This document shows positions 8,238 to 8,519 of a DNA stretch of 20,927 nt, one piece after another. Below the pieces are notes generated by a model, which was not told where the DNA came from, searched no databases, and was given only the letters and a program-made list of their open reading frames with translations. The stretch is from a virus. A program made the position numbers and the translations under genes. Within the stretch, counting starts at the first letter, position 1, and each line of letters opens with the position of its first letter. Location of the stretch: the UHGV virus genome UHGV-0268707; one strand, written 5' to 3'.

Positions 8238-8519
8238 ATGATTAAAGACAGCAAAGCGGAAGAACTGGAGGCTAAAGGGCTGTACCGGAGAGCGGCGGCA
8301 CGTTGGGCTGATGTTATGTGGCTGGTGAGCACTGATAAGGAGCGCGAACAGGTGGCAAAGCATCGCGCGGAATGTATCCGTAAGGCAGCACGCCCACCAG
8401 TCATGCCGGATAATTTCGGAATACTGAAAGAGGCCATAAACCGCACACATACCGGGATGGGCTTACAGAAGCCTGGCGGTGAGATGTTCAGGAACTACCC
8501 GAAAAAAGGGGATAATTGA
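8238..8519 (+). CDS. PerC-family-like transcriptional regulator
   Basis: N-terminus AEELEAKGLYRRAAARWADVM matches my recollection of the PerC/Pch signature (LE.KG.WRRAA.RW). GAGGT RBS upstream of ATG 8238. Assignment is from memory only. Confidence 0.45.
   Translation: MIKDSKAEELEAKGLYRRAAARWADVMWLVSTDKEREQVAKHRAECIRKAARPPVMPDNFGILKEAINRTHTGMGLQKPGGEMFRNYPKKGDN

What the first reader, a model, noticed from the sequence alone, without database searches (positions are those of the whole stretch)
8238..8519. PerC-like regulator carried by the satellite
The N-terminal motif AEELEAKGLYRRAAARWADVM resembles what I remember of PerC/Pch activators, which in pathogenic E. coli are encoded on plasmids or prophage-like elements and activate chromosomal virulence regulons. 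If correct, the satellite could rewire host gene expression when resident. The family assignment is from memory and could be wrong.
Basis: partly seen in the sequence, partly recalled or inferred. Interest (0 to 1): 0.45.

Follow-up and report, generated by a model that had tools for sequence, protein, structure and literature searches.

The report
PerC-family regulator gene in phage satellite
The gene is a genuine PerC/Pch-family small regulator carried by a capsid-forming phage satellite, but such genes on E. coli satellites are already annotated and published, and its closest studied relatives do not switch on the LEE virulence island.

Summary
Window 8238-8519 (+) encodes a 93-aa protein that matches Pfam PerC (PF06069) end to end (E 2.3e-35, 121 bits against a cut-off of 22.6). 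The family call and the "satellite" call are both right. The gene lies in a ~15.5 kb capsid-forming PICI: int, two alpA, Bro-N, an RgdR-like DUF4222 gene, DUF927 primase, ori iterons, ssb, perC, then capsid through terL.

It is the positional counterpart of pchE in E. coli O157 Sakai Sp7/CP-933C (EcCIEDL933): same synteny, 60% identity. It is 48% identical to PchA and 45% to EPEC PerC. PGAP already names 95-97% identical proteins "PerC family transcriptional regulator", and PerC homologues on PICIs have been described since 2005.

The functional inference is weaker. PchE does not activate LEE; it represses csgD/curli and raises flagellar expression. The homologue on PICI EcCIMP1 represses LEE1. 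The window protein falls in an untested subclade, and the promoter mapped for pchE is not upstream of it. The most likely mechanism, inferred from Pch, is modulation of H-NS nucleoprotein complexes.

Correct but ordinary; low novelty.

The parts
8238..8519 (+). perC/pch-family CDS. It encodes 93 aa with a calculated pI of 9.7. The predicted structure has five helices: a conserved N-terminal helical-hairpin module (residues ~5-50) and a more variable C-terminal part (helices 60-74 and 79-85).
   Evidence: Pfam PF06069 E 2.3e-35. PHROG 994 at 1.2e-41, while the 'transcriptional activator' PHROGs match only residues 1-52. AF2 model with mean pLDDT 78. pI. 60% identity to PchE, 48% to PchA, 45% to PerC.
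8228..8231 (+). Shine-Dalgarno GAGG, 6 nt before the ATG. Only 15 nt separate the ssb stop codon (8220-8222) from the perC start, so there is no room for a separate intergenic promoter.
   Evidence: Read directly from the sequence. No sigma-70-like site was found between 4184 and 9466.
7797..8222 (+). ssb gene immediately upstream and co-directional; probably the first gene of the ssb-perC-orf82 unit.
   Evidence: Pfam SSB 1.4e-16 and TIGR00621. The ssb-perC pairing recurs in Sakai Sp7, E. coli 042 and Enterobacter-type PICIs.
8565..8813 (+). 82-aa ORF downstream of perC with a strong RBS (AGGAGG). It is a homologue of Sakai ECs1589 and is the last gene of the unit.
   Evidence: PHROG 1957 at 1.3e-36. 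42% identity to ECs1589. Among the loci held, it is found only in the cf-PICIs.
8823..8851 (.). Bidirectional intrinsic terminator: GGCCTGG-TAAAAT-CCAGGCC followed by a T-run. It closes the ssb-perC-orf82 unit and also the convergent minus-strand ORF 8850-9356.
   Evidence: Terminator scan, both strands; sequence.
7605..7735 (.). Cluster of AACCCGC/GCGGGTT iterons, the PICI replication-origin type. It lies between the primase gene and ssb.
   Evidence: Sequence and motif positions. The surrounding segment is 90% identical to the Sakai Sp7 primase-ori segment.
5466..7586 (+). DUF927 primase/helicase (pri-rep) of the satellite.
   Evidence: Pfam DUF927 1.1e-45; homologous to Sakai ECs1582.
5155..5469 (+). 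DUF4222 protein, a homologue of RgdR (ECs1581), the other LEE/motility regulator described on this satellite family. It reads RPGD where RgdR has RGD.
   Evidence: Pfam DUF4222 3.4e-19. 51% identity to ECs1581. RgdR description in PMC3378721.
669..16159 (+). The whole carrier, a ~15.5 kb capsid-forming PICI. Gene order: int 804-2063; alpA-like 2029-2262 and 2326-2604; Bro-N 2662-3243; replication genes as listed above; capsid 9643-10788; a prohead protease ORF (listed as 10622-11398; the true start is probably further downstream); portal (listed as 11310-12614); connector (listed as 12544-12909); HNH 12909-13349; terS ~13638-13994; terL 13978-15639. It is inserted in the terL gene of a prophage.
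   Evidence: ORFs; Pfam; E. coli 042 annotation of the 97% identical locus; collinearity with Sakai Sp7; junction sequences.

Best explanation
Window 8238-8519 is a PerC/Pch-family gene carried as accessory cargo of a capsid-forming, helper-embedded PICI. It occupies the position that pchE occupies in the prototype cf-PICI EcCIEDL933 (Sakai Sp7/CP-933C).

Shown: family membership, synteny, and its place in an ssb-perC-orf82 block that ends in an intrinsic terminator.

Inferred from published work on Pch/PerC: the ~10.6 kDa, basic, all-helical protein has no classical DNA-binding domain. It probably acts by remodelling H-NS/StpA/Hha-type nucleoprotein complexes, or by binding partner regulators through its conserved N-terminal helical-hairpin module. 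Either route would change transcription of AT-rich, horizontally acquired or surface-structure loci in the host, such as ler, csgD or flhDC.

The sign of the effect and the targets cannot be read from the sequence. The studied satellite-borne relatives are not LEE activators.
For: Family. PF06069 full-length match, E 2.3e-35. All invariant signature residues are shared with EPEC PerC. There are 122 PF06069 homologues and 347 cluster representatives in 1.84 billion proteins.

Synteny. The order DUF4222/RgdR - primase - ori - ssb - perC - small ORF - capsid...terL is the same in Sakai Sp7, where the gene is annotated pchE, and in E. coli 042, where PGAP calls it 'PerC family transcriptional regulator'.

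Identities. 60% to PchE, 48% to PchA, 45% to PerC, 48-51% to EcCIMP1_025.

Operon structure. The gap between ssb and perC is 15 nt, the RBS is good, and a terminator lies at 8823-8851.

Mechanism in the literature. Pch activates LEE1 only when H-NS/StpA/Hha/YdgT silencing is present, and it reduces H-NS binding at LEE1 in vivo and in vitro (PMC4764244). PchE overexpression represses csgD/curli and induces flagella. EcCIMP1_025 represses LEE1-lux.

Link to anti-activators. The ANR model NF033650 aligns to residues 6-49. The match is weak for the window protein (E 0.17). It is 1.7e-3 for EPEC PerC and 5.6e-8, just above the cut-off, for the 51-54% identical relative P0087.
Against: No experiment exists for this protein or for its 100%-bootstrap subclade. 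Grouping with PchE as nearest studied relative has only 26% bootstrap support.

The protein is basic (pI 9.7), like PerC (9.8) and PchA (10.3), whereas PchE is acidic (5.7). PchE may therefore be a poor functional proxy.

No promoter was detected for the unit. The region holding the mapped pchE transcription start in O157 lies elsewhere in this element, at 15739-15892. When the gene is expressed is therefore unknown.
Confidence: 0.55

Rival explanations
1. One reading: a bona fide PerC/PchABC-type activator that switches on ler/LEE (or an equivalent virulence regulon) in the host that carries the satellite.
For: The window protein is as similar to PchA (48%) and PerC (44-45%) as those two proven activators are to each other (47%). 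It shares their basic charge (pI 9.7 against 9.8 and 10.3), unlike acidic PchE. All invariant family residues are present. Fillol-Salom 2018 states that some PICI-encoded PerC homologues activate LEE.
Against: In the NJ tree PchA and PerC group together, away from the window protein's subclade (low deep support). The syntenic PchE is reported not to be required for ler/espA expression. The PICI homologues of EDL933 and CFT073 had no effect on LEE1-lacZ, as cited in PMC11773190, and EcCIMP1_025 represses LEE1. The closest carriers of the same element are EAEC 042, porcine ETEC and APEC-type strains. To my knowledge these lack LEE, so LEE activation cannot be the selected function there.
Confidence: 0.12
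2. An ANR-like anti-activator or repressor. The N-terminal module would bind AraC-family activators (for example AggR in EAEC) or H-NS, and so dampen virulence or surface-structure genes, as proposed for EcCIMP1_025.
For: The ANR model NF033650 aligns to the N-terminal 45-50 residues of PerC-family proteins. A 51-54% identical relative (P0087) passes the ANR cut-off and NCBI names it ANR. EcCIMP1_025 (48-51% identity) silences LEE1-lux. PchE represses csgD, eae and lpfA1. The element occurs in EAEC 042, whose AggR regulon is the classical ANR target (my own knowledge).
Against: The window protein scores only 11.8 bits (E 0.17) against a cut-off of 32. To my knowledge ANR proteins are ~60-70 aa and lack the C-terminal 40 residues present here. 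No interaction data exist.
Confidence: 0.18
3. A regulator serving the satellite itself. It would be made from the replication block after induction and would relieve silencing of, or activate, the adjacent AT-rich region and capsid/packaging operon, or the late genes of the prophage in which the satellite sits.
For: The gene lies between the replication and packaging modules, directly upstream of an AT-rich segment (GC 0.35 at 9001-9300) and the capsid operon. In lambdoid prophages, homologues likewise sit just upstream of the terminase/head genes (pchA in Sp4). The gene has no detectable promoter of its own and follows ssb by 15 nt.
Against: PerC genes also occur in classical PICIs that have no capsid module, and on plasmids. 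Their presence among EcCIMP1-like elements is described as variable. pchE transcription falls rather than rises after SOS induction in O157. The lysis-terminase junction in lambdoid phages is a typical cargo ('moron') site.
Confidence: 0.12
4. Conserved cargo with no regulatory activity under natural expression levels: an inert hitch-hiker, or a protein working with SSB/ProQ-type nucleic-acid-binding proteins in replication.
For: Deleting pchE caused almost no phenotype in O157; effects appeared only on overexpression. The gene recurs next to ssb or proQ/finO genes in PICIs and plasmids.
Against: The ORF is intact and its signature is strongly conserved across Enterobacterales. Several family members have reproducible regulatory effects.
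Confidence: 0.08

Closest known systems
PchE (ECs1588) of E. coli O157:H7 Sakai Sp7 / EDL933 CP-933C (O-island 51) = cf-PICI EcCIEDL933
   Same: The genomic position is the same: RgdR-like gene, primase, ori, ssb, pch gene, small ORF, capsid...terL. PchE is the highest-identity studied relative (60% over 88 aa) and is of similar size (90 against 93 aa). It belongs to PF06069.
   Different: PchE is acidic (pI 5.7 against 9.7). The ECs1586 gene and the promoter region mapped for pchE are missing upstream of the window gene. The tree places the window protein in a separate, 100%-supported, untested subclade, with only weak support for a sister relation to PchE.
PerC (BfpW) of EPEC E2348/69 plasmid pMAR2/pEAF, and PchA/B/C of EHEC lambdoid prophages (group 1 Pch)
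   Same: Same Pfam family and the same invariant N-terminal signature. Identity is 45% to PerC and 48% to PchA. All are basic small helical proteins encoded on mobile elements.
   Different: These relatives are encoded in the perABC operon of a virulence plasmid, or in the late region of lambdoid prophages, not in a satellite replication block. Their LEE1 activation is experimentally established; nothing has been tested for the window protein. PchA has a longer C-terminal tail (104 aa).
EcCIMP1_025, the PerC-family protein of PICI EcCIMP1 (E. coli MP1)
   Same: It is a satellite-borne PF06069 protein of 93 aa, 48-51% identical to the window protein.
   Different: It lies in a classical (non-capsid-forming) PICI, at the distal accessory end and not next to ssb. 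It has been shown to repress LEE1-lux. It groups in a different branch of the tree, with Enterobacter/Klebsiella-type homologues.
ANR (AraC negative regulator) family, e.g. Aar; NCBIfam NF033650
   Same: The 54-position ANR model aligns to residues 6-49, the same conserved helical hairpin. Some PerC-family relatives pass the ANR cut-off.
   Different: The window protein scores far below the cut-off (11.8 against 32 bits). It also has an extra ~40-residue C-terminal region.

Membership tests
PerC family (Pfam PF06069) | Significant full-length match to the family profile, above the gathering score | tested here: met
   E 2.3e-35, 121.2 bits against a cut-off of 22.6; residues 1-89 on profile positions 1-89 of 90.
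PerC family (Pfam PF06069) | Conserved N-terminal signature (D-x-K-A-x2-L-E-x2-G-x2-R-R-A-A-x-R-W) plus the conserved Cys, shared with authentic EPEC PerC | tested here: met
   Invariant columns D4 K6 A7 L10 E11 G14 R17 R18 A19 A20 R22 W23 C46 in a 33-sequence alignment that includes E2348/69 PerC.
PerC family (Pfam PF06069) | Small (~85-105 aa) all-helical protein encoded on a mobile element | tested here: met
   93 aa with five predicted helices, encoded inside a PICI.
PerC family (Pfam PF06069) | Transcriptional regulatory activity (the activity for which the family is named is activation of the LEE1/ler promoter) | not testable with these tools
   This needs reporter assays. Published relatives differ: PerC and PchABC activate, PchD and PchE do not, and EcCIMP1_025 represses.
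Group 1 Pch (PchA/B/C) LEE activators | Close sequence relationship to PchA/B/C and location in the late region of a lambdoid prophage | tested here: not met
   48% identity to PchA. PchA groups with PerC, apart from the window protein's subclade. The gene is in a PICI replication block, not a lambdoid late region.
PchE (group 3 Pch) orthologue | Same position in a cf-PICI of the EcCIEDL933 type | tested here: met
   Collinear with Sakai Sp7 ECs1581-ECs1598.
PchE (group 3 Pch) orthologue | Sequence-level orthology and shared properties with PchE | tested here: inconclusive
   60% identity, but only 26% bootstrap support for the sister relation, opposite net charge (pI 9.7 against 5.7), and a different upstream region.
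ANR family (NCBIfam NF033650) | Score at or above the curated cut-off of the ANR model | tested here: not met
   11.8 bits, E 0.17, against a cut-off of 32.
Capsid-forming PICI (cf-PICI) as the carrier | Size of 10-16 kb with int, alpA, pri-rep and an iteron ori, plus its own capsid, protease, portal, connector, HNH, TerS and TerL, and no tail or lysis genes | tested here: met
   ORFs and Pfam hits, iterons, and 72-90% nucleotide identity to Sakai Sp7 across the modules. The criteria are those of the cf-PICI preprint.
Capsid-forming PICI (cf-PICI) as the carrier | AlpA-dependent induction by a helper phage and transfer in satellite-made small capsids with helper tails | not testable with these tools
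   This is an experimental criterion, demonstrated for EcCIEDL933 only.
Helper-embedded PICI (HE-PICI) | Integrated inside a late gene of a prophage, co-oriented with it | tested here: met
   The prophage terL is split at PF20441 nuclease-domain positions ~53/64. The junctions read ...RVNFFTK | and | TKHMNVWV.... The same junction occurs in 36 complete E. coli genomes. A terminase-A site for HE-PICIs is published in PMC10111431.

The most novel reading that the evidence does not exclude
The ssb-linked PerC subclade on satellites may not be a host virulence regulator. It could instead be an H-NS/nucleoid counter-silencer that the satellite uses for itself: to open its own AT-rich packaging region, or the late (tail) genes of the prophage it is embedded in, once replication starts. 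Effects on LEE, curli and flagella seen on overexpression would then be side-effects.
Probability: 0.12. Interest if true: 0.5.

Novelty: already known. Interest (0 to 1): 0.15.

Why it matters
If active, a PerC/Pch-type protein on a highly mobile satellite lets a 15 kb element retune host surface structures and virulence regulons (LEE, curli, flagella) wherever it lands. This is already the published view of PchE, RgdR and EcCIMP1_025.

The open points are modest. This basic, ssb-linked subclade has never been assayed. It is as close to the proven activators as they are to each other, and the studied relatives differ in the sign of their effect. A reporter assay would therefore be informative.

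For annotation purposes the gene is ordinary. PGAP already names near-identical proteins correctly.

Tried and rejected
- NCBIfam at E<=0.01 gave no family for the protein. At E<=10 only a sub-threshold ANR hit appeared.
- PDB sequence search found nothing meaningful (best E 1.3).
- Foldseek of the AF2 model against the PDB gave no hit with E<=0.001.
- PADLOC gave no defence-system match for perC, orf82, the minus-strand ORF 8850-9356, Bro-N or ORF 3915-4268.
- The promoter scan found no sigma-70-like site between 4184 and 9466 on the + strand, so the promoter of the ssb-perC-orf82 unit is not identified.
- Porter et al. 2005 (PMC543544), the primary paper on PerC-like proteins, is not held. 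Its results are cited only through papers that quote it.
- My first literature search matched word beginnings and returned only irrelevant papers.
- I considered that perC and the downstream 82-aa ORF form a fixed two-gene module, and rejected it: orf82 homologues accompany perC only in the cf-PICIs among the loci held.
- I considered the 21-bp repeat at 799-819 and 16062-16082 as the att core, and rejected it. The terL reading frame breaks at ~669 and resumes at ~16150, where an imperfect 16-bp repeat ending in TTACCAA lies.

Full report
**1. The observation**

The + strand of the window carries an ORF from the ATG at 8238 to the stop at 8517-8519. A GAGG ribosome-binding site lies at 8228-8231. 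The upstream ssb gene stops at 8220-8222.

The product matches Pfam PF06069 (PerC transcriptional activator) over residues 1-89 against profile positions 1-89 of 90, with E 2.3e-35 and 121 bits against a cut-off of 22.6. It also matches PHROG 994 end to end at 1.2e-41. Several PHROGs labelled "transcriptional activator" match only residues 1-52.

A search of 5.8 billion proteins returned 122 homologues, all carrying PF06069. The best are 95-97% identical and are named "PerC family transcriptional regulator" by NCBI. A profile search of 1.84 billion cluster representatives found only 347 members, nearly all short proteins.

I aligned the product with 32 relatives, including the authentic PerC of EPEC E2348/69 plasmid pMAR2, which I retrieved next to perB. 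The invariant positions are D4 K6 A7 L10 E11 G14 R17 R18 A19 A20 R22 W23 C46.

**2. The surroundings**

The gene sits in a ~15.5 kb element. Its genes are:

- int (804-2063)
- two AlpA-type genes
- a Bro-N gene
- a DUF4222 gene (5155-5469)
- a DUF927 primase (5466-7586)
- a cluster of AACCCGC iterons (7605-7735)
- ssb (7797-8222)
- the perC-like gene
- an 82-aa ORF (8565-8813)
- a bidirectional terminator (8823-8851)
- a convergent AT-rich ORF (8850-9356)
- capsid, prohead protease, portal, connector, HNH, TerS and TerL (9643-15639)

These assignments rest. There are no tail or lysis genes. This is the layout of the capsid-forming PICIs described by the Penadés group.

E. coli 042 carries a 97% identical copy with the same annotation. 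The prototype cf-PICI, EcCIEDL933 (CP-933C, Sakai Sp7, O-island 51), is collinear with the window at 72-90% nucleotide identity. There the gene in the same position, after ssb ECs1587, is pchE (ECs1588). The gene before the primase is RgdR (ECs1581).

**3. Relationship to studied family members**

| Relative | Identity to the window protein |
|---|---|
| PchE | 59-60% |
| PchA | 48% |
| EcCIMP1_025 | 48-51% |
| EPEC PerC | 44-45% |
| PchD | 36% |

PchA and PerC, both proven LEE1 activators, are 47% identical to each other. The window protein is therefore no further from either than they are from one another.

A bootstrapped NJ tree puts the window protein in a 100%-supported clade of uncharacterised homologues borne on PICIs and prophages. 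PchE is the nearest studied neighbour, with only 26% support. PchA and PerC pair elsewhere.

The window protein is basic (pI 9.7), like PerC (9.8) and PchA (10.3), whereas PchE is acidic (5.7). Sequence alone cannot predict the sign of regulation or the targets.

**4. What is known about function**

- *Group 1 Pch.* Pch activates LEE1 only when H-NS/StpA/Hha/YdgT silencing is in place, and it reduces H-NS occupancy of LEE1 in vivo and in vitro (PMC4764244).
- *PchD and PchE.* Group 1 Pch, but not PchD or PchE, are needed for ler and espA expression (PMC6265319).
- *PchE overexpression.* It represses csgD/curli, eae and lpfA1, and strongly induces flhDC/fliC and motility. Deleting pchE does little.
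- *pchE transcription.* pchE is transcribed with ECs1586 and ssb from a start 10 nt upstream of ECs1586. Its expression falls after SOS induction (PMC7369912).
- *EcCIMP1.* The PerC homologue of PICI EcCIMP1 silences LEE1-lux in C. rodentium. That paper also states that the PICI homologues of EDL933 and CFT073 had no effect on LEE1-lacZ (PMC11773190).
- *Prior reports on PICIs.* Fillol-Salom et al. 2018 already noted that some E. coli PICIs encode PerC variants. A 2026 survey lists perC as PICI cargo in Enterobacter.

**5. Structure and mechanism**

An AlphaFold2 model built on 32 homologues has a mean pLDDT of 78. It shows helices at residues 5-13, 16-29, 33-50, 60-74 and 79-85.

The ANR (AraC negative regulator) model NF033650 aligns to the same N-terminal segment. 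The match is insignificant for the window protein (E 0.17). It is 1.7e-3 for EPEC PerC and 5.6e-8, just above the cut-off, for the 51-54% identical relative P0087. The PerC N-terminal module and ANR proteins therefore appear to be distantly related.

My best explanation is that the protein modulates H-NS-type nucleoprotein complexes or partner regulators through this module, and so alters transcription of horizontally acquired and surface-structure genes. This is an inference from homologues and was not shown here.

**6. Expression**

The 15-nt gap after ssb and the shared terminator argue for an ssb-perC-orf82 transcription unit. No sigma-70-like promoter was found upstream.

In Sakai the iteron region is longer, and ECs1586 with the mapped pchE start site lies between it and ssb. 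In the window, ECs1586 is absent. The homologue of that second half of the Sakai region (L012 30935-31088) sits at 15739-15892, beyond terL, at 80% identity.

**7. Gene neighbourhoods elsewhere**

- Salmonella PICIs have primase-ProQ-PerC, with overlapping genes.
- Enterobacter/Klebsiella-type PICIs have primase-SSB-PerC.
- One E. coli island has ssb-proQ-perC plus a second, divergent perC.
- Lambdoid prophages carry a 64% identical homologue between the lysis cassette and nu1. pchA lies in the same kind of place in Sp4.
- 185 plasmids carry homologues, often beside proQ/finO.

The gene is thus widespread cargo of Enterobacterales mobile elements rather than a fixed part of one life cycle. The downstream 82-aa ORF accompanies it only in the cf-PICIs.

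**8. Verdict**

The family call and the satellite call are correct. The "LEE-type activator" inference is untested for this subclade, and the studied satellite-borne relatives argue against it.

The closest carriers (EAEC 042, porcine ETEC and others) are, to my knowledge, LEE-negative. Any selected function there must therefore concern other targets.

Near-identical proteins are already annotated, and PerC homologues on PICIs, including the prototype cf-PICI, are published. Novelty is therefore "already known" and interest is low.

**9. Side observation: the satellite sits inside a prophage terL**

The satellite interrupts the terL gene of an HK97-like prophage:

- The N-terminal fragment ends ...RVNFFTK at ~669.
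- The frame resumes as ...TKHMNVWV at ~16150.
- An imperfect 16-bp repeat ending in TTACCAA lies at both junctions.
- Pfam places the break at positions ~53/64 of the TerL nuclease domain.
- The same left junction occurs in 36 of 5,426 complete E. coli genomes.

This "helper-embedded PICI" arrangement, including a terminase-A site, was published in 2023 (PMC10111431).

Noticed in passing
window 61-669 and 16150-16894, with junctions at ~655-670 and ~16144-16159: The whole satellite is inserted, co-oriented, inside the terL gene of an HK97-like prophage. The break falls in the nuclease domain (PF20441 positions ~53/64), and an imperfect 16-bp repeat (GAAnTnTTnTTACCAA) lies at both ends. The same left junction is present in 36 of 5,426 complete E. 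coli genomes, including strain 042. This matches the published 'helper-embedded PICI' class (PMC10111431, which lists a terminase-A site), here for a capsid-forming PICI.
   Followed up: partly
window 5155-5469 (+): This DUF4222 protein is 51% identical to RgdR (ECs1581), the LEE/motility regulator of O-island 51. It reads R-P-G-D where RgdR has the functionally implicated R-G-D motif, so its activity may differ.
   Followed up: partly
window 15715-15892: A second cluster of GCGGGTT/AACCCGC iterons plus a TATATATATA stretch lies at the far right end of the satellite. It is 80% identical to the part of the Sakai Sp7 ori region that lies just upstream of ECs1586 and contains the mapped pchE transcription start. 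In the window the ori-like region is therefore split between 7605-7735 and 15715-15892. In the excised circle, this right-end segment would face attP and int.
   Followed up: partly
window 8850-9356 (-): A 168-aa ORF convergent with the perC unit lies in the most AT-rich stretch of the element (GC 0.35). It matches PHROG 5789 (unknown function, 3.5e-86) and has no Pfam, NCBIfam or PADLOC hit. It is 100% identical in E. coli 042, and tblastn (E<=1e-4) found no match in the Sakai Sp7 locus. It is candidate accessory or defence cargo.
   Followed up: partly
L010 15584-16273 (E. coli contig CAJGGV010000001.1): A lambda-type major capsid gene E (PF03864) is cut after 91 aa and is followed at once by an integrase gene. 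This is probably another helper-embedded PICI of the published capsid-E type, in a prophage that itself carries a perC homologue.
   Followed up: no
L006 2750-4032 and 8001-8309 (E. coli CP058790.1): One island carries ssb-proQ-perC (78% identical to the window protein by tblastn) and, 4 kb further on, a second and divergent perC paralogue (P0118, 38-45% identity).
   Followed up: no
protein P0129: A 1,346-aa protein shows 20 separate matches to positions ~43-82 of the PerC profile. It may be a repeat protein or an assembly or gene-calling artefact. I did not examine it.
   Followed up: no
window 799-819 and 16062-16082: A 21-bp direct repeat (GTGTATTGCrCTGTGTATTGC, itself an internal tandem of GTGTATTGC) lies just inside both ends of the satellite, about 100-130 bp from the crossover sites. 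These may be integrase arm-type binding sites.
   Followed up: no
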